Sequence record: MN850625.1 | Origin: Escherichia phage smaasur | Strand: one strand, 5' to 3' | Length of the DNA: 41,110 nt | Shown here: one piece after another, positions 7,693 to 28,380 of the stretch | How the letters are laid out: each line of letters begins with the position of its first letter | Numbering within the stretch: position 1 is the stretch's first letter | Notes under the pieces: generated by a model | What the model was told of the DNA's origin: nothing | The model's input: only the letters and a program-made list of their open reading frames with translations | The model's database searches: none | Program-made: the position numbers and the translations under genes

Positions 7693-8111
7693 TACGGTTT
7701 CTCCAAATCAATGAATCGGTACTCCTGAACATAAGGACGTACCATGTGGGAGTAACCGCACCAGCGCAACCCAGCTTGCCGGGCAGCGCGTTTGAGTTCG
7801 CGGAGGATGAGACGGGTCACTCCCCGGTTGCGATACTGGGGCCATACATACATGGCCATTACAACGGCGCACGGCCCCACATGAATATCGAACAGCTCAC
7901 CGAGATGAGCACAGCCCATGAGAGCACCGTCAGAATCATGGACGTACACATCTGTGCATCCGTTGGCGGTGGCATCATACATGGCGTCCACTATCACATC
8001 CCACGGTAAATCAGACCATTGGCGTTCATCCTGTATACCTTTGGCTACAGCAGTCCGAATGTCGATTGGCATCGTGGTGTGATGTATGTTGTCCACAACA
8101 GTTACTTTCAT
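7692..8111 (-). CDS. GNAT-family N-acetyltransferase (putative)
   Basis: 139 aa. AVVMAMYVWPQYRNRGVTRLILRELKRAARQAGL fits the GNAT beta4-alpha3 acetyl-CoA-binding pattern. Start ATG sits inside the repeated element ATGAAAGTAACTGTTGTG. Overlaps the upstream small gene by 1 nt (TAATG). Confidence 0.5.
   Translation of the reverse strand: MKVTVVDNIHHTTMPIDIRTAVAKGIQDERQWSDLPWDVIVDAMYDATANGCTDVYVHDSDGALMGCAHLGELFDIHVGPCAVVMAMYVWPQYRNRGVTRLILRELKRAARQAGLRWCGYSHMVRPYVQEYRFIDLEKP
8097..8111 (-). repeat. repeated element ATGAAAGTAACTGTT (copy 1, at the GNAT start codon)
   Basis: Exact 15-mer on the minus strand; extends to 18 nt (ATGAAAGTAACTGTTGTG, 8094-8111) shared with copy 4. Confidence 0.6.
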
Positions 8112-8293
8112 TACACAGTCCTTTCACGGATGAAGTCCAACACGTCCTGTTTACCCGCTTCTCTGTTCAGTAGTGAGATATCTGATTCATGGGTGATGGT
8201 CTTCCCTACCTTCTCCCATGTACCGAATGCCTTCTCTAAGAGAGCTAGTTGTCCTTTGTTGAACGTCACTCTGTCTAATGGTGAGTCTTTCAT
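8111..8293 (-). CDS. small protein (60 aa from MKDSPL), translationally coupled to the downstream GNAT gene
   Basis: ORF track gives 8111..8311; the internal ATG at 8293 has a GGAGA ribosome-binding site, so I start it there. Predicted short beta-strand followed by helix (RVTFNKGQLALLEKAF). Confidence 0.4.
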   Translation of the reverse strand: MKDSPLDRVTFNKGQLALLEKAFGTWEKVGKTITHESDISLLNREAGKQDVLDFIRERTV

Positions 8294-8336
8294 AGAGAAT
8301 CTCCAATGCACTACGAGAGTAATCTGGGTATACCAG

Positions 8337-8351
8337 AACAGTTACTTTCAT
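8337..8351 (-). repeat. repeated element ATGAAAGTAACTGTT (copy 2, just downstream of the RNA polymerase gene)
   Basis: Exact 15-mer on the minus strand, 26 nt downstream of the RNAP stop and 44 nt upstream of the ATG at 8293. Confidence 0.6.
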
Positions 8352-8376
8352 TAAGTGCAAGAAATATAAGACTAAA

Positions 8377-10809
8377 TTAGCAGAAGAATTTGGAGGATTT
8401 CTTGACCTCGTTGATATCCAACTGGCCCCGTGCTGGAGCTTCCTTAGAATATCTCACGGCAAGTTGTTGAATCGGGTCATTTTCCTCGTACATCTGCACG
8501 AATTTTTCACGGATGACTTTGTGCAGTAGACCTGCATGAGCTGCTGCAACACCGAACGAGTCATGAATGGATACCATGTACACCCCGTTATTCCACATCT
8601 CCCACAGGACTTTCGTCATGTGGCTGGCATCCATCGCATGTACAAAATTCGGAGCAATCGCAGCCGCGCATTTGCGACCGTCTGGCTTGTCGATGAACTC
8701 ACGCAGCTTGATGGCATGAACGCCCATCAGCTTGATACCCATAGTGGTCTCTTTGTGAGCCTGATACATGTTCACCACACGCAGACCAGACGGGGCAGTG
8801 AACTCCACATACTCACCGTTAGCCGCCGCCTCAGATGCGATAGCTTGCAGCCATGCCATCAGCTCAGCAGCCTTTGGCACCACGCGAGGAATTGCATCCC
8901 ACATGAACCCGGCGATGTACATTGCGCACTGGAACAGGGTGTACCCTTCCGGTAGCGGAGTGTTGTGCTCCCGTAAATACAGCGCATAGTAATCCACCAT
9001 GCCGTGGCGTGTCGCACCGTACACATAAGTCATCACAGGCTTCTTAGCCATACCGCGCTCTATGCCAGTCTGTATGAGCCACGAACCCAAGACAGTAGGG
9101 TTGGTTGCCTCTGCTTCCTTCAACGCCTCCAGAGCCGCCGTAGCGGTCTTAACGTAGATGTCTGCCTTACGTCCTACTGAATCAATCAGGTTAACCGCAG
9201 CCCCGCCCACCTCGTCACGCAGCATTGCTGAGAGATGTTGCAGACCTGAGCACGTCGCGTCCCACTGTGTCACCACACGGCACGGATACTCTTCCGGGTT
9301 CCCGCTATCCAGCGCACGCACCAGCTCTACCGCAGCCGCCCATGCACACAGTGGGCTGTCAGCCTCAGACCAGAATGAGTCGTATGCCTCTGGCAGACGG
9401 CAAGCCTCGCGCAGTCGCGGCATTGTCTTGTCCGTCCATGCCGCCCGGTCTTCAAAGTCTGTGGAGTCATAGCCGAAGCAGTTGGCCACATGAACCTTCA
9501 ACCAGAACAGACCCTCCTTACCAAGCGGCACCGGGTCAGCCAGCTCAAGCAAAGCACGAATCGCGTCAATGCCTTGCGGGTTCAGGGATGTGGCATAGTA
9601 GCAACGGCCACGAGTGTCGGCGTATGTCGGCAGGTAGATTCGCTCGTACACTTTGTACTGCTCAGCCTCACGCAGCGCACTGCTCAGCGCCTGAATCTGC
9701 GTGGTGAACTTCTTCATGTCGTTGTGGTAAATGCGAGTCTTAACCTTGAACTCGTGCGCCTCAGCGTCCATGCGCTGCTGCATCTCAGCCGGGAACTTGC
9801 TGATGTACTGGCCGAACGTTACGCCTTCCGGGATAGTGAACGGCAGCTTAGGCTCCACTGGAGCAACAGGCAACCCCATCACCCCGGTTCTGTTGGCTTG
9901 TAAGAACTCCAGCACCATCTTGTTCACGCGGAACGGAACGTTTGACAGCATCATGCACGGCTCAATCATCGGTCGTGGGTCAATACCTAACTTGCGATAC
10001 GCCGGGTGCTTGAGCTTGCTGATTACCGCATACGTTGCCGCCTGCCCCGGAGAGTGCCACATACCGCCAAAGCCATTCGCACTGATTTGAGCTGGCGGTA
10101 TAATCAGCGGCGGGTAGCAACTGATGCCGAGGTGTGGCAGCTTCATCCAATCCTCAAGCATGATGAGCACATCGTCATGCAGAGCGAAGTGCGCAGTCGC
10201 CCGGTTCTTCAAGCTACCGCCCACTCGGACAGTCTTGACCAGACCAGTCGGCTCGACAGCACGCATCATCAACTTGCCGATTGTGATGAGCGCACGCTGT
10301 GGCAGGCTTTCAATCTCGACACCAACATTTGCCGAGGCAGCGCGTGCCTTGTTGTAGATGTGGTTTGGCGACTTAGACTTGGACTTATTCACGTCGCGGC
10401 GAACCCTCTCCATATACGCAGCCTCACGCTTACCAGCCCGCTCAGCTCGTGCATAGACTACCTCAGCCATCATTGCCTGCCCCATCTCGCGGAGCAGTTG
10501 AGTCACGGCGGTACGCCCGGTCGCGCCGGACACCGCCATGCTCAGGGCCAGAGACGCGCAGGTCTTGGCCCCGACTTCACGAAGGTACGTGCGGTACTGC
10601 GCACCGAACCCACGAGTAGTTTCGTTCAGGATATCCAGCATTGCAGCTTCGACAGTGGGGTATGCCTCAACCATCGCTCGCTGCAACAGTGGCACCGCCG
10701 AGGCGCGGCCTGAGTCTATCGCATCTCGTACGTTATCTAACCAGCCTGCCCGGTGACGGGCACGCGCCTCTTCTTCCAGTCGAATCTGTTCTGCCAGCAA
10801 ATCCATCAC
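8377..10809 (-). CDS. T7-like single-subunit DNA-directed RNA polymerase
   Basis: 810 aa. [20 protein letters not shown] matches T7 RNAP motif A region [32 protein letters not shown]...SIHDSFG matches T7 motif C region PNFVHSQDGSHL...IHDSFGT. Confidence 0.95.
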   Translation of the reverse strand: [810 protein letters not shown]

Positions 10810-10815
10810 ATCCCC

Positions 10816-11082
10816 TTACTCGTAGTCGTCTTTGTTATTCGGCACATCAATGAACGTAGGCTCAGAGTAGCCCGGCTGCACCTGACTGCGCAGCCCCAGT
10901 TCACGCAGTACCTGCCGCTGCAATACCGGGTCGCTCGTACCCGTACCGCCGCAGGCTTCACACTCACACAGTACAATCTCTTTATTCATCAGCATACTGT
11001 GGAAGGTGCCGCTGCCATGACAGGCACCGCACACTTTACCATCAACCACTGTATCATCAAGCACTTTTTGATAGCGACTCAT
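10816..11082 (-). CDS. small Cys-rich zinc-ribbon protein
   Basis: 88 aa with CGACHGSG and CECEACGG (Cys pairs suggesting a Zn-binding ribbon). Function unknown. Confidence 0.45.
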   Translation of the reverse strand: MSRYQKVLDDTVVDGKVCGACHGSGTFHSMLMNKEIVLCECEACGGTGTSDPVLQRQVLRELGLRSQVQPGYSEPTFIDVPNNKDDYE

Positions 11083-11656
11083 TACGTTTCCTCAGTTCCA
11101 GTTCCAGAATGAACAGCGCATTGCACGCTGCATGGGCCAGATGGTGCAGGCCAGATTCACTGTCCAGTTCCTCACCATTACCCACTGCCAGCAGGTGGCG
11201 TATAAGCGCAGACTTGTAGCGCTCCTGACCTTCCGGCACAGTCTGCCACGAATGGGCAGCGTACTTCTGAGCGCCGAACGTCAGCACCTCGCCGACTGCG
11301 GCCAGTGCGTTCGGGCACCCATCAAACAGCAGAGCCATACGTGGCTTGCCACCGTCGAACTTCATACCGCCCGGCCCGGCACCCTTGGCCACGGCCACCT
11401 CAACGTCATGCGCTGGGTCGTACGGGTCAACCGGGATGAAGTGTGTCTCCACCGCTTGCACCTCGTACGGCTCCAGCACCAGCAGATGAGTCTTCCCATC
11501 CTTCACGCAGGTGTAGTAATCGCGGCTATCGTTCGGCACATCGTACGGTTCGTCGTACGTCAGGATGATACCCTGCTCAGCAATGTCGCTCAGCAGCGTG
11601 CCAGTGCCCCAGTTGCGTGCCGGGTCTAAGATAAACTTCTGACCTTTCTTACCCAT
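11057..11656 (-). CDS. hypothetical protein (199 aa from MGKKGQ)
   Basis: ORF track gives 11057..11734, but the ATG at 11656 has a GGAGGT ribosome-binding site and abuts the upstream stop at 11649. No motif recognised. Confidence 0.5.
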   Translation of the reverse strand: MGKKGQKFILDPARNWGTGTLLSDIAEQGIILTYDEPYDVPNDSRDYYTCVKDGKTHLLVLEPYEVQAVETHFIPVDPYDPAHDVEVAVAKGAGPGGMKFDGGKPRMALLFDGCPNALAAVGEVLTFGAQKYAAHSWQTVPEGQERYKSALIRHLLAVGNGEELDSESGLHHLAHAACNALFILELELRKRNESLSKSA

Positions 11657-12176
11657 TCGCCTTACCTCCATCGACCTTATCGCCAGCACCATCATACTTA
11701 GCATTTGCGTGAACATACTCGTGATTGTCCTCATACCGGGTCACTTCATAAACCGTGATGCCGAGGCTGCGCATGAAGTCCACGATGTGCGGCAGGTCAT
11801 CAAAGGCACATACGATGTTTTCAATGCCAATGTCTTCCAGCGCAGCACGCTTCATCTCAGTGTCCTTACGGCAGTCGCCAACCTCACGCATGATGAGCTT
11901 GTCGTACACCACCCCATTATCGTCGAGCCATTGCTCAGTTACTTCACGGGCCACGGCCCCGCGTCCGGTCAGAATGACAATGCGATACGTGAGGGCCAGA
12001 GCGTTCACAATGTCAATCGTATCCTGAAACGCAGGGTCATCTGCACCTGCCAAGTTGAACTCGGCCCATGCTTCATCAAGGTGGCGTCGGTCGGGCGGCG
12101 GCAGCAGGTGCAGACGCCAGCGGCCATCAGCCAACGTCCCGTCGAGGTCTACCACAACGGTATCTTTTAAGTTCAT
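11649..12176 (-). CDS. HAD-superfamily phosphatase (5'-nucleotidase or polynucleotide 3'-phosphatase-like)
   Basis: 175 aa. N-terminal VVVDLDGTLAD is HAD motif I (DxDGT); ILTGR motif II; AFDD acidic motif IV. Has a GGAGAAAG ribosome-binding site. Confidence 0.65.
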   Translation of the reverse strand: MNLKDTVVVDLDGTLADGRWRLHLLPPPDRRHLDEAWAEFNLAGADDPAFQDTIDIVNALALTYRIVILTGRGAVAREVTEQWLDDNGVVYDKLIMREVGDCRKDTEMKRAALEDIGIENIVCAFDDLPHIVDFMRSLGITVYEVTRYEDNHEYVHANAKYDGAGDKVDGGKANG

Positions 12177-14945: not shown

Positions 14946-15851
14946 TTACAGGCTCGGCAGGCCGAAGTCAGCATCGCCAGTCACGTCAGGCTCCGGCGAG
15001 GTCTCGGTCGCACCCTTCTTACCACCCTTCTTGGTAGGCAGTTCCTCCGGCTCCGGCGTTACTTCCTTCGCTTCCTCCTGCGTCTCTTCCAGCTCAGGCA
15101 GCTCAGAGATTGCAGAGCCAGCGCCGCCGCCATTCAGCAGCAGGTCAAGCGGAGAGCCGGGATACTCAGGGCTGGACAGCAGAGCGTCCTGAATCCAGTT
15201 CTTGGATTTACCCTCGTCGTTCTTCCCTTCAATGTACAGGGATTCCCAGTCTTCCTTGGTAGGACGGTTCCACAGGAACAGCTTGAACAGAGACTCGTCC
15301 TCAACCTCCGGCACATCGAACGGCTCATCAGTCACCGGGTTAACTGCGAGGCTGATGTTCTCAAGGTCGATGTTGGCGTACACCTTCTTGTTCTCGCCCT
15401 CGCCTGATTCGTTATGCACGATAGGCAGGATGAACGTATTGTTCAGGAGCTGAGCGAAGTGCTTCGCAGTCTTCTCCGGGTTCATACGCTTGAACAGTTT
15501 GTACGCGCCGGACTTACTGTTGAGGTCTTTCTTAACAGCAATGAACTGCGTGCGTACAATGCCCGGCACCATCTTGCCATCCACCACCTCGTGGTAGGTG
15601 GAAGTCTTGTCCTTGCCCTTACCCCACACTGCAAACTTGAGGAAGAACTTATTGACAGGCGGCTTGCTTGCGTCCTGCTTAATAGGCTGCGGCCCGATTT
15701 CCACATACTGAATCAGGCGAGCCAGTGCCTTACCTTCCGGCATCAGCTTACCGCCGCCACCGGACACGGCTTCGTTAAAGTCTACGCCTTCTTCTTCAAC
15801 GAACTGTTCAACGATGGTGTTAAAGCGATTCAATACACTCGGCTTAGTCAT
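14946..15851 (-). CDS. hypothetical protein with acidic C-terminal tail (possible ssDNA-binding protein)
   Basis: 301 aa, Lys-rich body with a Glu/Asp-rich C-terminal tail (ELEETQEEAKEVTPEPEEL...DADFGLPSL). Sits beside the DNA polymerase. The SSB assignment is inference from the acidic tail and location only. Confidence 0.35.
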   Translation of the reverse strand: MTKPSVLNRFNTIVEQFVEEEGVDFNEAVSGGGGKLMPEGKALARLIQYVEIGPQPIKQDASKPPVNKFFLKFAVWGKGKDKTSTYHEVVDGKMVPGIVRTQFIAVKKDLNSKSGAYKLFKRMNPEKTAKHFAQLLNNTFILPIVHNESGEGENKKVYANIDLENISLAVNPVTDEPFDVPEVEDESLFKLFLWNRPTKEDWESLYIEGKNDEGKSKNWIQDALLSSPEYPGSPLDLLLNGGGAGSAISELPELEETQEEAKEVTPEPEELPTKKGGKKGATETSPEPDVTGDADFGLPSL

Positions 15852-18337
15852 ATCTCGATACCCTTAGATTTCAGAAAGTTACGTTTGAACTCCAGCACTT
15901 CTTCGGCTGTCGTCTCTACGTGGTGCTTCTCATACATGCTTGGGCCTGCTTCCACCTCTGCCGGGAACGGCACCGTCAGGTCATACTCAGGCCAGATGTG
16001 GTTGTAGTATTCCGGGATGGATTCCATGATTGCCTTGAGTCCAACGAAGAACTCGTGAGGACAGTCAGGTGCCACGTCGAAATAGAATGCGTCATGCACT
16101 TGGTTGATGGGAACCACACGCCCACCAAAGAAGTCATTGCTCAGCAGCCAGCGGAACAACAGGCCACCGATACCCTGCACCCAAAACGCGGTCTCACCCT
16201 GAATCGGATAGTTACGCATTTGGGTTGGCTTGTACTCCATCAAATACCCACGAGCTGCGCTGTTCCATTTCTCGTACTGACGGAATGAATAGCAGGTGCC
16301 ACCCGGAGATTTGTAGAAGCCACGGCGGTAGACGCACCACCGTCCATTCTCATCCTGCTCCTTGAACACATTGCTCTGACCGGACTTCTCCACTGCCGGG
16401 AAGATAACCTTGTCGAACCATGCTTCCACTTCTGGAAACAGACTCTTCTCGTTGTCGATGAATGCCTGTGCCTCTTCCTCAGTACAGCCAGTGGAGTACG
16501 CGATGCCTCGCGCTGTCGCACCGTACTGATATGAGAATGCCTTCGGCTTGATATCGGTACGCATCTGGCTATAGCGTTCGTGGTCAGGGTGGGATTCATC
16601 CTTCGCCTTACGCTTCACCTCTTCGTAATCTTCCTCAAGCTGCGCGGCTAGACGCATACAGTGCATGTCGATGTTATCCATCAGAGCCTTAACGAGATTC
16701 TTATCCTTACTGAATCCCGCCAGCCCTACTACTTCCAGCGCCGAGTAGTCAGCCTCGACTATCCTGCCGCCCGGCCCGAACCGGGAGGTGAACATCTGCT
16801 TAACTTTACTCGTACCTTTACGCGGAAGGTTCTGGCTATTCGGTCGTGCCGATGATAAGCGAGTGGTCTCCGTCGCAGTCATGTTAATGGTGTGATGTAC
16901 AATCCCATCCGGCTGGATGAACTGCATCATACCTGACTGGCCAGTGACGTTACCCTCTTCGTCGAAGGTCTCACTCAAGTAGTAGGTGCCGAGGTCTTTC
17001 TGTGACTTGGCACGTTCAGCGATTTCAACCACACCGGGAATCTTACGGGCAGCCAGAATCTCCAGCACCTCACCCGCCGTACTGAACACAGGCGTGCCGT
17101 CAGCCAGCTTGCGCTTGCCTACCCAGTCACCTGTGCGCCGGAGATATTCACCCGGACGCTTCGGGTCTTCCCATACGAGGTTGTCTGCTATCTCCTTCGC
17201 TCGTCTGTCCTTGTCGCGGAGCAGACCGGGCAGCGGGTACAGCACATCGCCCCACTTGGTGTCCACCTCATCTGTCGCCAGCTTCTCGAACTTAGGCTCG
17301 CCCTTGAACTTGCCTGCCGTGTACAGAGTTTGGTGTACCTTCTCAACCGGGTCATACCATAGCCCGGACTCTTCATCGAACTCGCACTCTTCCTTGTGCT
17401 TCAACCACTTCTCCTTGCCACGCTTGAACAGCGGAGCATCCACCTTCACGTAGATTGGATTGCCGTCTGCATCAGTGCGTGGTACGCGGGTCGTATACTT
17501 CATGACGCCGCCGAAGACGAACGCTGACATGTGGTATGCCGACGTGAACTTGAACTGGTTACGTGCTTCCTCCGGCATATCGTCCGGCAGGTAGTCCAGC
17601 AGCTTCTGTGTCAGCTCGTCAATCTGCGTGCGTAACTCCTGACGATTCCGCTCAGCCACTTCACGGTCAACGTGCAAGCCGCTGTGCATCATGTACGCCC
17701 ACATCAGCATCCCTTCCATACGGGTCAGTGCCATCGGCAGCATACCTTGTTTGGTAAGCTCAGCCCACTGCCCGACGAACACCTTCGTGGTGTTCTCGAT
17801 ATCGCCGCTCGGCCCGGACAGGTACTCACTCAGCAGCTCCGGGTCAATCTGGCTGGTCAGATAACCTGACTCCCACATTGCCTTGACTGCATCCACCTTG
17901 TGAGTACCGCCGTACTTCGGCGCGGTTTCGTTTAACGATGGGTACTGCGATTGCTGGTGAGTCAGCAGGTACTCTGCATACGCGGTACAGAATACACGGC
18001 CACCTCGTTTGAGGAATGCAGTGAACTCGTCACCGTAATGCAGGAACCACCAGCTCAGTTCGTACGGCGCGTTGTGTGCCACCAGTATGTTCGTGTCGGG
18101 GTGCAGGTGCAGACTCTTGTTCTGCAACCAGTCTTCCCTTGACGTGTACCGATACTCTTCGCGCTCGTAGAACTCCCAGCCATTCTTCGTCAGCACACAA
18201 TCGCGCTGGCCTTGCATCACGACGTAGTTGTCCGGGCAGCGTGGAGATGCCAGCTCACCGTACCAGTCATGGTTCTCGGTCTCAACGTCAATGACCTGTG
18301 CTCGAATTGCCATTACCCCTCCGCTATGCTGTGCCAC
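15848..18337 (-). CDS. family A DNA polymerase with N-terminal 3'-5' exonuclease domain
   Basis: 829 aa. Pol I motif A (ADYSALEVV), motif B (KPKAFSYQYGATARG), motif C (QVHDAFYF); N-terminal DVETEN exo I-like motif. Confidence 0.95.
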   Translation of the reverse strand: MAQHSGGVMAIRAQVIDVETENHDWYGELASPRCPDNYVVMQGQRDCVLTKNGWEFYEREEYRYTSREDWLQNKSLHLHPDTNILVAHNAPYELSWWFLHYGDEFTAFLKRGGRVFCTAYAEYLLTHQQSQYPSLNETAPKYGGTHKVDAVKAMWESGYLTSQIDPELLSEYLSGPSGDIENTTKVFVGQWAELTKQGMLPMALTRMEGMLMWAYMMHSGLHVDREVAERNRQELRTQIDELTQKLLDYLPDDMPEEARNQFKFTSAYHMSAFVFGGVMKYTTRVPRTDADGNPIYVKVDAPLFKRGKEKWLKHKEECEFDEESGLWYDPVEKVHQTLYTAGKFKGEPKFEKLATDEVDTKWGDVLYPLPGLLRDKDRRAKEIADNLVWEDPKRPGEYLRRTGDWVGKRKLADGTPVFSTAGEVLEILAARKIPGVVEIAERAKSQKDLGTYYLSETFDEEGNVTGQSGMMQFIQPDGIVHHTINMTATETTRLSSARPNSQNLPRKGTSKVKQMFTSRFGPGGRIVEADYSALEVVGLAGFSKDKNLVKALMDNIDMHCMRLAAQLEEDYEEVKRKAKDESHPDHERYSQMRTDIKPKAFSYQYGATARGIAYSTGCTEEEAQAFIDNEKSLFPEVEAWFDKVIFPAVEKSGQSNVFKEQDENGRWCVYRRGFYKSPGGTCYSFRQYEKWNSAARGYLMEYKPTQMRNYPIQGETAFWVQGIGGLLFRWLLSNDFFGGRVVPINQVHDAFYFDVAPDCPHEFFVGLKAIMESIPEYYNHIWPEYDLTVPFPAEVEAGPSMYEKHHVETTAEEVLEFKRNFLKSKGIEI

Positions 18338-19007
18338 CCAAATGGTCGGGCATACGATTCACGTACTCCTGAATGCGTGGCAGCAACTTCTCGTGCTTCT
18401 CTAACATGTAAGCCAGACGACTCATGCTCGCATCCGGTCGGCATACACGCAGGGTCAGCAGGTCGTCGTAGCTTTCTACCAGACTGGCCAGCGCCGGATA
18501 CCACTGCACATCCTCGGCAGTCAGCTTCGGCTCATACGGGTACGCCATGAAGTCACCGGGGTCACGGCTGTACTGGCCGGAGTAGCGCGGGATACTGGAC
18601 GGGAAGTAGAACTGGTTCAGGTTGAAGTCGAACTCGTTCAGCACCTGTGACCAGCAGCCGCACTTACTGATGATGATATCGACCGGGCCAACTTTGTACA
18701 CGCCGTACAGTCGAGAGCCAAAGTCGCCGCCCTCTTCTGCGTCGTGGTAACTCGGCATGTACTCATAGGCCAGCCTGTGCTCAGCAGCCCAGTCCTCCAG
18801 CCGGGAGTCCAGCCAGTCCAGTCGGCGAGCAACGCGCTGCACGTCACCGCCCCAACCGAACACCACGATATCAAAGTCCTTCGGGTCTACACCAAGCGCG
18901 GTGTCTCGTGCCCCACCCCCTGCAACGACAAAGCTCAGCTCTTCGCCCTGCAACAGCCGACAGATTTCCTCTGCCCACACGCGCTTGAAGTCGTTATCAC
19001 TTGTCAC
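18324..19007 (-). CDS. Pol-beta-superfamily nucleotidyltransferase with CCA-adding-enzyme-like head motif
   Basis: 227 aa. VVAGGGARDTALGVDPKDFDIVVF matches the class II tRNA nucleotidyltransferase / poly(A) polymerase head signature GGxxRDxxLGxxxxDxD; a third acidic residue follows at PVDIIIS. Confidence 0.55.
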   Translation of the reverse strand: MTSDNDFKRVWAEEICRLLQGEELSFVVAGGGARDTALGVDPKDFDIVVFGWGGDVQRVARRLDWLDSRLEDWAAEHRLAYEYMPSYHDAEEGGDFGSRLYGVYKVGPVDIIISKCGCWSQVLNEFDFNLNQFYFPSSIPRYSGQYSRDPGDFMAYPYEPKLTAEDVQWYPALASLVESYDDLLTLRVCRPDASMSRLAYMLEKHEKLLPRIQEYVNRMPDHLGGTA

Positions 19008-19218
19008 TTTTCTTTCTCCCCTTGGTATAGGTGAAGTTAACCACGGCGTAGATATCTTCGGGTGCTACGTTGAAGCGTTCACCCAATGCCTCGGCACCAC
19101 GGAATGCGTCGCCCTTCCGGTACTGTGCCCGGATGAGTTCCTGCTCACGTTGGTTTAAGGGTGCCGCTCGATACGTGCGTTCTTCCATACTGTTTCGCTC
19201 CACACTTTTCACACTCAT
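18997..19218 (-). CDS. small helix-turn-helix protein (sigma-70 region-4-like)
   Basis: 73 aa; LNQREQELIRAQYRKGDAFRGAEALGERFNVAPEDIYAVV resembles the region-4 HTH pattern of sigma factors and LuxR-type regulators. Confidence 0.35.
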   Translation of the reverse strand: MSVKSVERNSMEERTYRAAPLNQREQELIRAQYRKGDAFRGAEALGERFNVAPEDIYAVVNFTYTKGRKKSDK

Positions 19219-19308: not shown

Positions 19309-19662
19309 TCACCACTTGCTCGGCACTGAGCCGGACAGGTAGTTAGTCGTAGGCTTACGCTCGATGTACTGATTGTACCGCGACATGGCATCACACGCCG
19401 CCTGATACAGACGCTCAGCTTCTGCATAGCTCCAGTCTTCGTCAGTGCTCGTCGGCTCCGGCACCTTGGCTACTTCATCCAGTAGCTCCCAGCACTCTGG
19501 CCGCGCAGTCCACGAACCATAGATACCGGAACCACGCGAGCCATCGTCGCGCCGGATGCTGATGCACTTGCTGTCGATATCCACCACAGTACCAGTCGCG
19601 CCGAAGTGTACGCTCTTGGTATCACAGTTACGAACGCGGTCGCCTACCTTTATCTTGCTCAT
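19309..19662 (-). CDS. hypothetical protein with N-terminal GDRVR motif (small paralogous family)
   Basis: Start placed at 19662 (MSKIKVGDRVR), where ATG overlaps the helicase stop as ATGA. Shares an N-terminal pattern with the genes at 21647..22099 and 24363..24626. Confidence 0.5.
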   Translation of the reverse strand: MSKIKVGDRVRNCDTKSVHFGATGTVVDIDSKCISIRRDDGSRGSGIYGSWTARPECWELLDEVAKVPEPTSTDEDWSYAEAERLYQAACDAMSRYNQYIERKPTTNYLSGSVPSKW

Positions 19663-20927
19663 CACATATCCTCGAATTGACATTTATCAGCATAGAAGTG
19701 AACCTGCGAACGGACGTTGGACGGACGCCCAGCTATCTGCCGCTTGTTCTTAGGAGTGCTCACGCCGCGCCGCGCTGCCAGCGCCGGGTCGTAAACGGAA
19801 CCCAGCATGACAATCACATCGGTCGCACCTTGGATACCAGTCTTGGAATCCTTGAGTGCGTCCAGCGCGGGGAACATATCGTCGGCACCGTCTGCGGATA
19901 CCTGAACCGTAGCCAGCGATACGAAGTCATGACGTACCGCCAGCTCACGTACCTCCTGCCAGAGCTGCTCGACTTGGCTGGCCTTGTTGCTGTTAGCGTC
20001 AGCCACAGACAACTTGAAGTTTGCCAGCATATCCCACACCACGATGCAGGGATTCATTGCTTCAATCACCTGCTCCGCTTTGGCCAACGTCGCGCCGTGC
20101 ATGTCCTTCACACGGATGATGTTGGCCGGGGCATTCAACGCCTTCGCGTACTTCTCATGCAGCTTCTTCCTGTCGGCACCCAGTGCTTTTAACTCCGGGA
20201 GCGTACAGCCGAGCGCCGCTTGGTAGATGCGCGGGATGATGTTGATGCCCTGCCCTTCGTTGTTGAACCATAAGATTGGTCGGCCCGGATACAGCTTCGC
20301 TGCTGTCGCCGCCATTCTCGTAAGGTTAAACGCGATGAAGGAAGTCTTGCCACTGTCGGGTCGAGCGCCGATTGCAACGGAGTCACCGGGGAGAAGTACC
20401 CTAACGCTATCTTGCAGACACATGAGACCGAACTTGAAACCTTGGTCATCATCTGTCCGATTGATAATATCAACCACATCATCATCAACGTAATCAGTGA
20501 CAGATGACTGCCCTCGACTGCGGCGTGCGCCTTCTGCAAGGCGGCCCAGCTCATAGATGAAATCAATCTCATCGCCATTGTCGTACCTCTGTGCAAGGAG
20601 GTTAACCTTGCCTGCTGTATCCAGCTCGACTAACTGGTCGATGATGCCTTCGGTCTGCTGCTTCGTCGGCTGGTATTCCTTGAGCTGCTGGCATAGCGAT
20701 TCGAACGCAGCCATCTGCTCCGGTGTACTCCCAGTCTTGAGCCGGACGTGTGTGCCTAGCGTTTCCATATCCACGTAGTCTGAATCCGGGAACGCCTCGA
20801 AGTATGAGCCATACGCACGCAGCATGTAGCCTGTGGTCTGACTCATAGTGTCCTCTGGAATGGCATGGCGCAGGGAGTTATACTTCCCGCGCTCACGCAT
20901 GACAGAGAGCAACAGTTTGTCTAACAC
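19662..20927 (-). CDS. DnaB-like (SF4) replicative DNA helicase
   Basis: 421 aa. Walker A GARPDSGKTS; Walker B-like IVVWDMLANF; RecA-like core. No zinc-finger or primase domain in this ORF. Confidence 0.8.
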   Translation of the reverse strand: MLDKLLLSVMRERGKYNSLRHAIPEDTMSQTTGYMLRAYGSYFEAFPDSDYVDMETLGTHVRLKTGSTPEQMAAFESLCQQLKEYQPTKQQTEGIIDQLVELDTAGKVNLLAQRYDNGDEIDFIYELGRLAEGARRSRGQSSVTDYVDDDVVDIINRTDDDQGFKFGLMCLQDSVRVLLPGDSVAIGARPDSGKTSFIAFNLTRMAATAAKLYPGRPILWFNNEGQGINIIPRIYQAALGCTLPELKALGADRKKLHEKYAKALNAPANIIRVKDMHGATLAKAEQVIEAMNPCIVVWDMLANFKLSVADANSNKASQVEQLWQEVRELAVRHDFVSLATVQVSADGADDMFPALDALKDSKTGIQGATDVIVMLGSVYDPALAARRGVSTPKNKRQIAGRPSNVRSQVHFYADKCQFEDM

Positions 20928-26837: not shown

Positions 26838-27369
26838 AGTTATTTCTCCAGTTATTGGCTATTTTCAGGTGGATAGTGAACCCATTGTGACGCGCCGTAC
26901 AGTCTGCACTCAGTGGCATTGATTGGCTTGTCGGATTCACTACCCTGAAAAATCGCCCCGCCCATTTCGCGCTGTGGATATTGTCTGCATCCACTCTCAG
27001 GAGTCTTCCAGCAGTCCGTCGCGTATCTTGCTCACCGTTGCCAGCTAACAAGCCGTTTGACTACCCACCCGCTATACTCCGCGCCTTATAAGACGTTCGG
27101 GATTGTACTGATACTGCGCTGCGTCTATCGCGCTTCTCCGTTCCCATGCACCGGGCGCTACCCCTATTGCCTTTCGGCGGTGCCTCACCCAGTTCCAACC
27201 TGCGGCGGATACCCAGTGAGCCGTGACACTACGCGGCCAGTTTGCGTTCACTCAGAGCAGGATGCTTTCCATCCTTTCAACTCGGTGCTGATTTCATCAT
27301 ATCTGAATCAGCTTGTCAACTACTTTTTACTTCTGACTGACTGGCTTGCTACCCGTCAATCTGGAGCGT

Positions 27370-27398
27370 ATTACAGCATACTCATTTCACCTTGTCAA
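27370..27398 (-). promoter_or_regulatory. candidate host sigma70 early promoter (minus strand TTGACA-17-TGTAAT)
   Basis: On the minus strand: TTGACA (plus 27393-27398), exact 17-nt spacer, TGTAAT (plus 27370-27375). Points toward the early genes. Confidence 0.5.
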
Positions 27399-27506
27399 CC
27401 GTTTTATTCAGCGCCCATTCTGAGATGAATAACCCGTACCAGTTCGCCTGCGTGTGTTTTAACGTCTTTATCAATGACTGTTTAGCTTGCTGGCTGACGT
27501 GGAAGC

Positions 27507-27535
27507 ATTACAGCATAGTGAGCTTGCCTTGTCAA
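27507..27535 (-). promoter_or_regulatory. candidate host sigma70 early promoter (minus strand TTGACA-17-TGTAAT), second copy
   Basis: Same architecture: TTGACA (plus 27530-27535), 17-nt spacer, TGTAAT (plus 27507-27512). A weaker third candidate is TTGACA (27313-27318) with TGAAAT (27290-27295). Confidence 0.5.
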
Positions 27536-27779
27536 TACACTCCAGATTGTTAAAGAGCATGGCTAACCGTCTAGCCCACCGTGTAACGATGTTCTGTTAC
27601 CCGGCGATGAGAATTACAGCAAATCACAAAGAGCATTGCAAGTATTATTTTCACTGAATACCTCAAATAGTGGATAAGTTATTGTATTCATTGATAATAA
27701 ATATTTGATTGAATAGGTTATTGCATAGCTTACATACAGCAGAATAACCGTAAATAAATCCTTTTAAATCAATGAGTAA

Positions 27780-27794
27780 ATGAAAGTAACTGTT
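27780..27794 (+). repeat. repeated element ATGAAAGTAACTGTT (copy 4, inverted, at the edge of the T-depleted terminus tract)
   Basis: Exact 15-mer on the plus strand, opposite to all genes; 18-nt identity with copy 1 (ATGAAAGTAACTGTTGTG). Sits at the junction between an AT-rich segment (27640-27780) and the T-depleted tract. Confidence 0.6.
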
Positions 27795-27799
27795 GTGTA

Positions 27800-28380
27800 T
27801 AGCAGTAGCGATACGCAGCGTAAGCGACGCAGCACGCAGTGCGATAGCGGAGCGCGGAGCGGAGCGAATGAGATACGGAGTAGCGAATGAGTGAACGCGA
27901 ACGGATAGCAAGTATCAGAGTGTTACACAGTACACACAGCAGACACACAGCGACGCGATGAGCTGGAGGAGCTGGAGCGCAGGCGGTAGCGCACAGAGTA
28001 CACCGTACACAGTACCGCACAGACACACACAGCAAGCGAGCGCAGGCAGCAGCAGCAACGCACAGAGCAAGCGAGCAAAAGAGATAGATAGCCCCGCGCC
28101 CAGCCACCGACACACAGCAGCACCGCACAGCACAGCGCAGGCCAGCGCAGGCGCGTCCAGTGGTAGCAGTGGCGCAGCGCACAGCAGCAGGACACAGCAC
28201 CGCACAGCACGCCACACGGCAGACGATGAAACGGGCACGCGCGAGCTGTTACCGCACGCACGCGAGCAATACCGCACGCGCAGGCACACGCGCATAATGC
28301 GCACACGTCATGCACGCGCACGCGCACAGGCGTACGGGGGCGCAGGCGCTCCTTCGGGTCGAGGGAGGCCCACGCACAAA
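27800..28380. repeat. strongly T-depleted, degenerate short-repeat tract at the presumed genome terminus
   Basis: Plus strand is almost entirely A/C/G with reiterated CACAG/GCGCAG/CAGCAC units; my hand count gives about 8% T over 27841-28380, and 28021-28080 has none. Lies between the last late gene (endolysin, ends 28435) and the early promoters, where T7-like phages carry terminal repeats and short-repeat arrays. Confidence 0.6.

What the first reader, a model, noticed from the sequence alone, without database searches (positions are those of the whole stretch)
18324..19007. Phage nucleotidyltransferase carrying the CCA-adding-enzyme head signature
GGGARDTALGVDPKDFD matches the class II tRNA nucleotidyltransferase / poly(A) polymerase head motif, yet the protein is only 227 aa and lacks the usual body/neck domains. 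A minimal enzyme of this kind in the replication module could repair tRNA 3' ends damaged by host tRNA-targeting defence nucleases, add tails to RNA, or act on nucleotide second messengers.
Basis: partly seen in the sequence, partly recalled or inferred. Interest (0 to 1): 0.5.

Follow-up and report, generated by a model that had tools for sequence, protein, structure and literature searches.

The report
Head-only CCA/poly(A)-type phage nucleotidyltransferase

Summary
A 227-aa ORF lies on the minus strand at 18324-19007 and carries GGGARDTALGVDPKDFD at residues 30-46. It has a strong RBS and is under purifying selection.

The window is a complete Bonnellvirus genome (Autographiviridae), about 97% identical to Escherichia phage J8-65. 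RefSeq already labels this gene "nucleotidyltransferase".

Three determinants of CCA-adding enzymes are missing family-wide:
- motif B RRD is replaced by xFD;
- motif D keeps only its Arg (R197);
- the body and tail domains are absent.

Faithful tRNA-CCA repair is therefore disfavoured.

The family is PHROG 1614, about 400 clusters of 150-230 aa, almost all from phages. Members fHe-Kpn01 Gp22 and Emajogi gp22 are reported cytotoxic. The anti-Gabija protein Gad2 is only a remote relative (hhalign 88%).

My best reading is an active, template-independent nucleotidyltransferase used for host takeover or counter-defence, with an unknown substrate. This is a known kind of gene and of moderate interest.

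The parts
18324..19007 (-). Complete gene for the 227-aa nucleotidyltransferase (GTG start at 19005-19007, TAG stop at 18324-18326)
   Evidence: ORF listing. 97.8% identical to the J8-65 protein, which RefSeq labels 'nucleotidyltransferase'. phrog_1614 E 3.8e-44. dN/dS 0.06-0.16.
19016..19023 (-). Shine-Dalgarno sequence AAGGGGAG, 8 nt upstream of the GTG start; it lies inside the 3' end of the upstream small ORF
   Evidence: Sequence read directly.
18603..19007 (-). Head (catalytic) domain, residues 1-135: class II Pol-beta-type nucleotidyltransferase fold
18870..18920 (-). Motif A, residues 30-46 (GGGARDTALGVDPKDFD): G30, G31, R34, D35 and the metal-binding D44-x-D46
   Evidence: G30, G31, R34, D44 and D46 are invariant and D35 is 98% conserved in 148 family representatives. 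The segment aligns to GGGVRDLLLGKKPKDFD of PAP I.
18678..18680 (-). D110, the inferred third catalytic carboxylate, in the strand V-D-I-I-I
   Evidence: 146 of 148 representatives have Asp here. It is the second residue of beta-strand 109-114 in the model. Equivalence to the class II 'hEVTTFR' glutamate is my inference, because profile alignments are unreliable in this segment.
18612..18632 (-). Motif-B-like signature, residues 126-132 (FDFNLNQ), in place of the class II RRDFTINA
   Evidence: Conservation in 148 representatives: F126 94%, D127 99%, N129 93%, N131 97%, Q132 86%. It aligns to 'RRDFTINAM' of 6ibp and 'RRDFTINSL' of PAP I. Both arginines are lost family-wide.
18438..18602 (-). Clade-specific insertion, residues 136-190, starting with the invariant FPSSIP; present only in the Bonnellvirus/LIMEzero group
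   Evidence: F135-P140, G144, R148, Y158 and P160 are invariant within the 20-sequence clade alignment. The segment is mostly gaps in the broad family, whose median length is 187 aa. It is poorly modelled, with pLDDT 51-77.
18354..18437 (-). C-terminal helix, residues 191-218, carrying the invariant R197 (codon at 18417-18419): a stub of the class II neck
   Evidence: R197 is invariant in 148 of 148 representatives, within the pattern hR.D.[ST]..R..[KY][MI]..K. It aligns with the Arg of 'EDPVR' (motif D) of PAP I. The helix at 195-218 is confident in the deeper model.
15848..18313 (-). Family A DNA polymerase immediately downstream. Its RBS GGAGGGG and its ATG (18311-18313) follow within about 10 nt of the NTase stop codon
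   Evidence: Sequence read directly. The RefSeq J8-65 annotation gives an 821-aa DNAP. The longest-ORF GTG start at 18337 would overlap the NTase by 14 nt.
18997..19218 (-). Small upstream ORF (73 aa, phrog_31596) that overlaps the NTase start by 11 nt; it keeps this position in all seven Bonnellvirus/LIMEzero-type loci
   Evidence: No Pfam hit.

Best explanation
The gene encodes a catalytically competent, stand-alone nucleotidyltransferase. It derives from the head domain of class II tRNA nucleotidyltransferases / poly(A) polymerases, and keeps a short stub of the neck helix. It belongs to a phage-specific family (PHROG 1614, about 150-230 aa) scattered through the middle, DNA-metabolism gene block of Autographiviridae and similar podophages.

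Shown here:
- homology to class II enzymes and the same fold;
- an intact two-metal site (D44, D46, D110) and the NTP-binding motif A;
- purifying selection on the gene;
- family membership of two proteins that others have reported to be cytotoxic.

Inferred:
- The protein binds an NTP as class II enzymes do and transfers an NMP, without a template, to a 3'-OH. The acceptor is most probably an RNA or tRNA end.
- Because it lacks the body/tail 'ruler', the RRD ribose sensor and the ED of the base template, it cannot rebuild CCA accurately. It would act as an unspecific or differently specific tailing enzyme.
- Expressed with the replication genes, it would serve host takeover or counter-defence, not housekeeping repair. 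That would also explain its toxicity at high dose.
For: Identity and fold:
- phrog_1614 E 3.8e-44.
- The broad-family profile against the PDB gives CCA-adding enzyme 6ibp E 2.4e-10 and PAP I E 1.9e-8, and the top 16 hits are all class II.
- hhalign gives 93% to PcnB and 92% to Cca.
- AF2 models have pTM 0.78 and 0.82.

Active site:
- G30, G31, R34, D44, D46 and R197 are invariant; D35, D110, D127, N129 and N131 are at least 93% conserved in 148 representatives.

Expression and selection:
- Strong RBS, tight packing with DNAP, and dN/dS of 0.06-0.16.

Not a canonical CCA enzyme:
- RRD is replaced by xFD, there is no conserved ED before R197, and no body/tail; family median length is 187 aa.

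Accessory-gene behaviour:
- The gene's position within the middle block differs between clades.
- Distribution is patchy: 37 of 46 Pectobacterium Autographiviridae but only 60 of more than 500 others (PMC7693777).
- It is almost absent from bacterial genomes, with 5 loci among 185,579 species genomes.

Toxicity:
- fHe-Kpn01 Gp22 is toxic in E. coli (PMC7291057), and Emajogi gp22 reduces P. putida growth 4.2-fold (bioRxiv 10.64898/2026.09.15.751885).
- Both are family members, at 107 and 143 bits.
Against: - No enzymatic activity, substrate or phenotype has been measured for this protein or any close relative, so the acceptor (RNA, DNA, protein or small molecule) is entirely inferred.
- The protein has no recognisable nucleic-acid-binding module and is acidic (pI 4.67, net charge -14). 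This is not discriminating, however, because the isolated head of E. coli Cca is equally acidic.
- Toxicity was shown only for relatives that match the query over about half of its length at roughly 30% identity, and only on overexpression.
- Loss of the RRD arginines could mean altered sugar selectivity and a DNA or other substrate instead.
Confidence: 0.45

Rival explanations
1. Gad2-like counter-defence enzyme. The protein neutralises a host anti-phage system (Gabija or another), using the same kind of nucleotidyl transfer as the N-terminal domain of the anti-Gabija protein Gad2. One speculative route is modification of a nucleic-acid end or nucleotide that the defence system senses.
For: - Nine of the 29 close homologues carry a precomputed Pfam PF26128 hit. 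The gene table names that family 'Gad2' and grades the hit on one of them, P0026, as weak.
- Profile-profile hhalign of 148 family members against 114 Gad2-family members gives probability 88%, E 2.9e-6, over 100 columns (query 14-139 to Gad2 17-118). The motif order and GG-to-DxD spacing are the same, and both have Phe-Asp where class II has Arg-Asp in motif B.
- Gad2 is experimentally anti-Gabija and toxic on expression (bioRxiv 10.1101/2023.05.01.538930).
- The family behaves as a phage-only accessory gene.
Against: - Authentic Gad2 scores only 16.6 bits against the family HMM, and BLASTP of the query against Gad2 gives E 0.77.
- Gad2 is 400 aa, and its C-terminal ~280 residues have no counterpart here.
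- Gad2 lacks R34/D35 (it has T/S) and has Gln where the family has the third carboxylate D110, so the chemistry may differ.
- The family matches canonical class II enzymes better than it matches Gad2.
- The papers I read describe no mechanism for Gad2, and a later search returned none whose title or abstract did, so there is no mechanism to transfer.
Confidence: 0.2
2. Genuine tRNA 3'-end repair. The enzyme rebuilds CCA, or adds the terminal A, on tRNAs whose 3' ends have been damaged during infection or by tRNA-targeting defence nucleases. In this clade it might work together with the phage's Pnkp-type 3'-phosphatase.
For: - The closest solved relatives are CCA-adding and A-adding enzymes and PAP I.
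- The catalytic core is intact.
- The same genome encodes a stand-alone HAD_PNKP 3'-phosphatase domain (PF25109, 57.5 bits; window 11649-12176, minus strand). That enzyme could generate the 3'-OH needed for extension, a division of labour that mirrors E. coli Cca's fused phosphohydrolase domain.
Against: - The family lacks the body/tail domains that hold tRNA, both Arg of motif B, and the acidic residues of the motif D base template.
- By my reading, the segment between the third-carboxylate strand and motif B is about 17 residues, against about 35 in E. coli Cca. From my own knowledge of class II enzymes, this is where the flexible loop needed for the C-to-A switch lies.
- The phosphatase co-occurs with the NTase only in the 7 Bonnellvirus/LIMEzero-type loci out of 40.
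- The phage has no tRNAs of its own, and the host already has Cca.
- Family members are toxic when overexpressed.
Confidence: 0.12
3. The acceptor is not a nucleic acid. The enzyme nucleotidylates a protein or small molecule, as the small NTases ANT(2'')-Ia, LnuA and the MNT antitoxins do, or it makes a nucleotide signal.
For: - The size and architecture (a head plus a short helical C-terminus, 150-230 aa) resemble ANT(2'')-Ia, LnuA and MenT1, which appear in the fold searches.
- No nucleic-acid-binding module is present, and the protein is acidic overall.
Against: - There is no PADLOC hit.
- Acidity is shared with the Cca head, so it does not point away from RNA.
Confidence: 0.13
4. DNA-end transferase linked to replication. 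The enzyme adds (deoxy)nucleotides to DNA 3' ends or primers as part of phage genome replication or end protection.
For: - The gene always lies in the DNA-metabolism block, and in this clade sits directly upstream of DNAP in a tightly packed arrangement.
- Loss of the RRD arginines could relax the requirement for ribonucleotides. From my own knowledge these arginines are associated with sensing the ribose 2'-OH, so this point is an inference.
Against: - The neighbours differ between clades: before primase/helicase, after DNAP, or after the exonuclease.
- Most Autographiviridae replicate without this gene.
- No homology to family X polymerases or TdT beyond the shared fold.
Confidence: 0.07

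Closest known systems
Class II tRNA nucleotidyltransferases and bacterial poly(A) polymerase I (Pfam PolyA_pol head, PF01743; e.g. PDB 3aql, 6ibp, 1miv, 4wby, 3h37)
   Same: - Same motif A, GGxxRD-x8-DxD, with identical spacing.
- A third carboxylate is present.
- The motif B core, D-F-[TN]-[IL]-N, is kept.
- An Arg aligns with the Arg of motif D.
- The head is acidic, like that of E. coli Cca.
   Different: - About 190-230 aa against 400-470 aa, with no body or tail domains and only a stub of the neck.
- Both Arg of RRD are replaced (xFD).
- No conserved Glu-Asp in motif D.
- The segment between the third-carboxylate strand and motif B is shorter.
- The query is below the Pfam gathering threshold.
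- The family is restricted to phages.
PHROG 1614 / 'nucleotidyltransferase' of Autographiviridae (LIMEzero gp22, J8-65 gp17, fHe-Kpn01 Gp22, Emajogi gp22, LKD16, PP47 gp28 and others)
   Same: The query is a member: phrog_1614 E 3.8e-44, 97.8% identity to the J8-65 protein, Foldseek E 2e-14 to the LIMEzero protein, and shared invariant residues.
   Different: The Bonnellvirus/LIMEzero clade carries a roughly 45-residue insertion after motif B (FPSSIP...), and the gene sits directly upstream of DNAP. Other clades are shorter and sit elsewhere in the middle block.
Gad2, the anti-Gabija protein of Bacillus phage SPbetaL7 (Pfam PF26128)
   Same: - A phage-encoded accessory protein with an N-terminal NTase domain that has the same motif order.
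- Phe-Asp in motif B.
- Toxic on expression.
- Remote homology by profile-profile comparison (88%, E 2.9e-6).
   Different: - 400 aa, with a large extra C-terminal region.
- Lacks the Arg-Asp of motif A and has Gln in place of the third carboxylate.
- Not detected by the family HMM at a significant level (16.6 bits).
- Found in Bacillota phages and prophages.
MenT1 / AbiEii-type tRNA-modifying nucleotidyltransferase toxins
   Different: No sequence-level relationship (profile E 0.33). The motif set is different, there is no cognate antitoxin context, and the score is below that of class II heads.

Membership tests
Class II tRNA nucleotidyltransferase / poly(A) polymerase superfamily (head domain) | Motif A: GG-x2-RD followed by the metal-binding DxD at fixed spacing | tested here: met
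   GGGARDTALGVDPKDFD at residues 30-46. G30, G31, R34, D44 and D46 are invariant and D35 is 98% conserved in 148 representatives. The segment aligns to PAP I and CCA enzymes.
Class II tRNA nucleotidyltransferase / poly(A) polymerase superfamily (head domain) | Third catalytic carboxylate on the following beta-hairpin | tested here: met
   D110 is conserved in 146 of 148 representatives and lies on strand 109-114 of the model. Residue-level equivalence to the class II glutamate is inferred.
Class II tRNA nucleotidyltransferase / poly(A) polymerase superfamily (head domain) | Significant profile and fold similarity to solved members | tested here: met
   [not shown]
Bona fide CCA-adding enzyme (class II) | Motif B RRD (ribose recognition) | tested here: not met
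   The aligned positions read E-F-D in the query and x-F-D in 94% of the family. Both Arg are lost.
Bona fide CCA-adding enzyme (class II) | Motif D EDxxR (the protein template for CTP/ATP selection) | tested here: not met
   Only the Arg (R197, invariant) is retained. No conserved Glu-Asp lies 3-4 residues before it; D192 is five residues upstream and is Asp in only 55 of 148.
Bona fide CCA-adding enzyme (class II) | Neck, body and tail domains that bind the tRNA acceptor/T-arm | tested here: not met
   The protein is 227 aa (family median 187) against 400-470 aa. Structural alignments stop at about 130-138 residues.
Bona fide CCA-adding enzyme (class II) | CCA addition to tRNA 3' ends | not testable with these tools
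   Needs an enzyme assay.
PHROG 1614 (phage 'nucleotidyltransferase') | Significant full-length match to the family profile | tested here: met
   E 3.8e-44, 152 bits, residues 6-225. 122 bits against an independent family HMM.
Gad2 (Pfam PF26128, anti-Gabija) | Sequence membership in the Gad2 family | tested here: inconclusive
   The query's own cluster and 15 of its closest homologues carry no PF26128 hit, while 9 more distant homologues carry it; grades the hit on one of them, P0026, as weak. The local Pfam copy lacks the model. BLASTP against Gad2 gives E 0.77. Gad2 against the family HMM scores 16.6 bits. Profile-profile comparison gives 88%, E 2.9e-6, over the NTase domain only. This amounts to remote homology, not membership.
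Gad2 (Pfam PF26128, anti-Gabija) | About 400 aa, with a conserved C-terminal region after the NTase domain | tested here: not met
   Gad2 residues from about 120 to 400, which include many conserved positions, have no counterpart in the 227-aa protein.
Gad2 (Pfam PF26128, anti-Gabija) | Inhibition of Gabija defence | not testable with these tools
   Needs phage infection assays.
MenT / AbiEii nucleotidyltransferase toxins | Sequence or closest-fold relationship | tested here: not met
   [not shown]
CD-NTases (CBASS second-messenger synthases) | Sequence or closest-fold relationship | tested here: not met
   [not shown]

The most novel reading that the evidence does not exclude
The short podophage nucleotidyltransferases (PHROG 1614) and the catalytic domain of the anti-Gabija protein Gad2 form one phage-specific offshoot of class II CCA/poly(A) enzymes, marked by the Arg-to-Phe change in motif B. 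Under this reading the offshoot has been repurposed as a counter-defence or host-takeover enzyme. This Bonnellvirus protein would then disarm a host immunity system by nucleotidylating an RNA, DNA end, nucleotide or protein that the system depends on. That would also give the first handle on how Gad2 works.
Probability: 0.2. Interest if true: 0.65.

Novelty: new member of a known kind. Interest (0 to 1): 0.33.

Why it matters
The gene itself is not a discovery. RefSeq, PHROGs and several papers already call it a nucleotidyltransferase, and some call it a tRNA nucleotidyltransferase.

This analysis adds three things:
- **A sharper definition.** The family is a class II head plus a neck stub. 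It keeps the metal and NTP-binding residues and one Arg of the base template. It has lost the ribose-sensing arginines, the acidic template residues and the tRNA-holding domains.
- **A correction to database labels.** 'CCA tRNA nucleotidyltransferase', 'tRNA maturase' and 'Gad2 family' all claim more than the evidence supports.
- **A link between scattered observations.** Two independent toxicity reports and a remote link to the anti-Gabija enzyme Gad2 all concern one phage-only family.

If the family proves to be a counter-defence or host-shutoff enzyme, it would be a compact new enzymatic tool. It might also help explain Gad2, for which I found no described mechanism. If it is a sloppy RNA tailing enzyme, it is a modest addition to phage host-takeover biology.

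Tried and rejected
1. **Acidity as evidence against an RNA substrate.** The family is acidic (median pI 4.9, none above 8). But the isolated head of E. coli Cca is equally acidic (pI 4.72), while PcnB's head is basic. I dropped the argument as non-discriminating.

2. **A conserved RNA-repair pairing with the neighbouring 'polynucleotide kinase'.** That gene is only the HAD phosphatase half of Pnkp. It co-occurs with the NTase in just the 7 Bonnellvirus/LIMEzero-type loci out of 40.

3. **A fixed link to DNA polymerase.** The gene's position differs between clades.

4. **Direct Gad2 membership.** The local Pfam copy lacks PF26128. Single-sequence comparisons are insignificant, and only the profile-profile comparison is positive.

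5. **PADLOC defence models.** No hit.

6. **NCBIfam.** Only sub-threshold pcnB and CCA hits, over motif A.

7. **Bacterial homologues, to get a cellular context.** The narrower one returned only 5 loci, so no context analysis was possible. That scan depends on two peptide patterns and may miss divergent members.

8. **Promoter and terminator scan.** Nothing above chance.

9. **Literature searches for a biochemical characterisation of the family or of Gad2's mechanism.** Nothing found in the held library.

10. **Mapping the class II 'flexible loop'.** Profile alignments are unreliable between residues about 60 and 115, so the shortened spacing is offered only as an inference.


Full report
**What is there**

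The coordinates 18324-19007 hold a 227-aa ORF on the minus strand (GTG start, TAG stop). The plus-strand frame is broken by stops.

A strong Shine-Dalgarno sequence (AAGGGGAG) lies 8 nt before the start. The ribosome-binding site and ATG of the downstream DNA polymerase follow within about 10 nt of the stop codon. dN/dS is 0.06 against phage J8-65 and 0.16 against an 85%-identical relative. The gene is real, expressed as part of the long minus-strand transcription unit, and under purifying selection. No promoter or terminator signal above chance interrupts the region.

**Where it comes from**

The window is essentially a whole podophage genome. It is about 97% identical to Escherichia phage J8-65 (Autographiviridae, genus Bonnellvirus), with all large genes on the minus strand.

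In RefSeq the orthologue (gp17) is already called 'nucleotidyltransferase' and noted as similar to LIMEzero gp22. The local gene order is primase, DnaB-like helicase, two small ORFs, the NTase, family A DNA polymerase, exonucleases, a Pnkp-type phosphatase, a MazG-like protein and the RNA polymerase.

**What family it belongs to**

The protein matches PHROG 1614 ('nucleotidyltransferase') at E 3.8e-44. An exhaustive profile search of 1.84 billion cluster representatives found 403 relatives (82 at E of 1e-10 or better). Nearly all are 150-230 aa, and they match only query residues about 8-135.

tblastn finds the family in 158 deposited phage genomes, mostly T7-like and phiKMV-like phages of Pseudomonas, Escherichia, Klebsiella, Vibrio and Yersinia. 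These carry labels ranging from 'hypothetical protein' to 'CCA tRNA nucleotidyltransferase' and 'pcnB'.

The nearest structures in the viral library are the same short podophage proteins, with 36 hits at E of 1e-3 or better. A pattern-based scan of one genome from each of 185,579 bacterial and archaeal species returned only five loci. Within reach of that scan, the family is phage-specific.

**Relation to class II enzymes**

On its own the query is below Pfam's PolyA_pol threshold: 15.3 against 23 bits, over motif A only. At family level the relationship is clear:
- A profile of 148 representatives hits the CCA-adding enzyme 6ibp at E 2.4e-10 across the whole head, with RRDFTINA aligned to sFDfNiNq.
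- The same profile hits E. coli poly(A) polymerase I at E 1.9e-8, with the alignment running into the neck helix.
- The 16 best PDB hits are all class II enzymes.
- hhalign gives 93% probability to PcnB and 92% to Cca.
- Other NTase-fold families come lower: MenT1, CD-NTases, ANT(2''), Lnu and terminal uridylyl transferases.

**What is conserved and what is lost**

Conserved in the 148 representatives:
- G30, G31, R34, D44, D46 and R197 are invariant.
- D35, D110, D127, N129 and N131 are at least 93% conserved.

Lost, across the whole family:
- The two arginines of motif B are gone (RRD is replaced by xFD, with Phe in 94%).
- The Glu-Asp of the base-templating motif D is not conserved. Only the Arg remains (R197, opposite the Arg of EDPVR in PAP I).
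- There are no body or tail domains.

By my reading, the segment between the third-carboxylate strand and motif B is about 17 residues, against about 35 in E. coli Cca. From my own knowledge of class II enzymes, this is where the flexible loop needed for the C-to-A switch lies. The alignments are unreliable in this segment, so this point is an inference.

The Bonnellvirus/LIMEzero clade additionally has a roughly 45-residue insertion after motif B. It begins with an invariant FPSSIP and is poorly modelled.

**Functional clues**

1. Two family members are toxic when overexpressed: fHe-Kpn01 Gp22 in E. coli (PMC7291057) and Emajogi gp22 in P. putida (bioRxiv 10.64898/2026.09.15.751885). I verified that both belong to the family (107 and 143 bits), using an HMM built without the query's clade. 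The query itself scores 122 bits against it.

2. The gene always lies in the middle, DNA-metabolism block, but its neighbours differ:
   - upstream of DNAP here;
   - downstream of DNAP in fHe-Kpn01;
   - between the lysozyme and primase-helicase genes in Emajogi;
   - after the exonuclease in other phages.

   Its distribution is also patchy: 37 of 46 Pectobacterium Autographiviridae, but 60 of more than 500 others (PMC7693777). This is how accessory host-interaction genes behave, not core replication genes.

3. Nine of the 29 close homologues carry a precomputed hit to Pfam PF26128. The gene table names that family Gad2 and grades the hit on one of them, P0026, as weak. Gad2 is the SPbetaL7 anti-Gabija protein, a 400-aa predicted NTase that is itself toxic. 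I retrieved authentic Gad2 and tested the link:
   - Direct comparisons are insignificant (BLASTP E 0.77; 16.6 bits against the family HMM).
   - A profile-profile comparison of the two families gives 88% probability, E 2.9e-6, over the NTase domain, with the same motif order and a shared Phe-Asp in motif B.
   - Gad2, however, lacks the Arg-Asp of motif A, has Gln at the third-carboxylate position, and has a large extra C-terminal region.

   Gad2 is therefore a remote relative, not the same family. The papers I read describe no mechanism for it, and a later search returned none whose title or abstract did.

4. The phage encodes no tRNA genes. The neighbouring 'polynucleotide kinase' is only the HAD 3'-phosphatase half of Pnkp (PF25109). 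It accompanies the NTase only in the Bonnellvirus/LIMEzero clade.

**An argument I dropped**

The family is strikingly acidic (median pI 4.9; the query has net charge -14), and I first read this as evidence against an RNA substrate. On calibration, the isolated head of E. coli Cca is just as acidic (pI 4.72), whereas PcnB's head is basic. The acidity only shows a Cca-like head with no basic RNA-binding appendage.

**Interpretation**

What is shown: this is a catalytically equipped, stand-alone, class II-derived nucleotidyltransferase of a known phage family.

What is inferred: it binds an NTP as class II enzymes do and transfers an NMP to a 3'-OH. Having lost the ribose sensor, most of the base template and the tRNA ruler, it cannot be a faithful CCA-repair enzyme. 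It is more likely an unspecific or re-specified tailing or modifying enzyme, used for host takeover or counter-defence, which would fit the toxicity.

I put about 0.45 on that composite statement. The rivals are:
- a Gad2-like counter-defence role, about 0.2 (this is not exclusive of the main reading);
- a non-nucleic-acid acceptor, about 0.13;
- true tRNA repair, about 0.12;
- a DNA-end role, about 0.07.

**Verdict**

The gene is a new member of a known, already-annotated kind, with a function no one has demonstrated. Interest is moderate to low as a discovery. The family would be a reasonable target for a short biochemical study, and several database labels ('CCA tRNA nucleotidyltransferase', 'tRNA maturase', 'Gad2 family') claim more than the evidence supports.

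Noticed in passing
window 1-41110: The window is essentially a complete Bonnellvirus genome (J8-65 is 40,981 bp). It is presented as the reverse complement and rotated relative to the RefSeq record, with all large ORFs on the minus strand and the cumulative GC skew falling across about 6-30 kb.
   Followed up: partly
window 11649-12176 (-): The gene annotated 'polynucleotide kinase' is only the HAD 3'-phosphatase domain of Pnkp (PF25109, 57.5 bits), with no kinase domain. I did not come across an RNA ligase gene, but I did not search the genome for one. Its substrate (DNA or RNA ends) is unknown. It co-occurs with the NTase only in Bonnellvirus/LIMEzero-type phages.
   Followed up: partly
window 11057-11734 (-): A 225-aa protein whose C-terminal half matches the N-terminal domain of dATP/dGTP diphosphohydrolases (PF18909, E 1.1e-32; phrog_801). 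As called, the ORF overlaps the phosphatase gene by 86 nt. It suggests nucleotide-pool manipulation.
   Followed up: no
window 18997-19218 (-): A small basic 73-aa ORF (phrog_31596, no Pfam hit) overlaps the NTase start by 11 nt and keeps this position in all seven Bonnellvirus/LIMEzero-type loci. By eye it looks like a helix-turn-helix of the sigma region 4 type. It could be a partner or regulator, or simply a neighbour.
   Followed up: no
window 18311-18337 (-): The longest-ORF start of the DNA polymerase (GTG at 18337) would overlap the NTase gene by 14 nt. A GGAGGGG ribosome-binding site followed by ATG at 18311-18313 fits the 821-aa RefSeq protein better.
   Followed up: yes
window 8001-9000 and 27001-28000: Two 1-kb stretches have clearly lower G+C (0.487 and 0.479) than the genome (about 0.55-0.58). 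The second lies in a region with no ORF of 150 aa or more (about 26.3-27.9 kb), probably the genome ends or early region.
   Followed up: no
window 19309-19683 (-): The 124-aa protein between the helicase and the small ORF has a weak, sub-threshold match to an Xrn1-type SH3-like domain at its N-terminus (22.7 bits against a cutoff of 26.2).
   Followed up: no
L044:1064-2266 (Bacillus phage SPbetaL7 Gad2): The Gad2 family conserves AGG, D45-x-D47 and D106 (in FDFT). It has T/S in place of the Arg-Asp of motif A, and a conserved Q88/H91 where related enzymes have the third carboxylate. Its active site is therefore atypical for a two-metal nucleotidyltransferase. It also gives a weak PADLOC hit to the candidate defence protein PDC-S19 (E 3e-4).
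   Followed up: partly
L047-L049 (Pseudomonas fontis and P. fildesensis contigs): The only clear bacterial-genome copies of the family are in Pseudomonas assemblies, two of them on short 8-kb contigs. This fits integrated or contaminating Autographiviridae-like phages, not a cellular gene.
   Followed up: no
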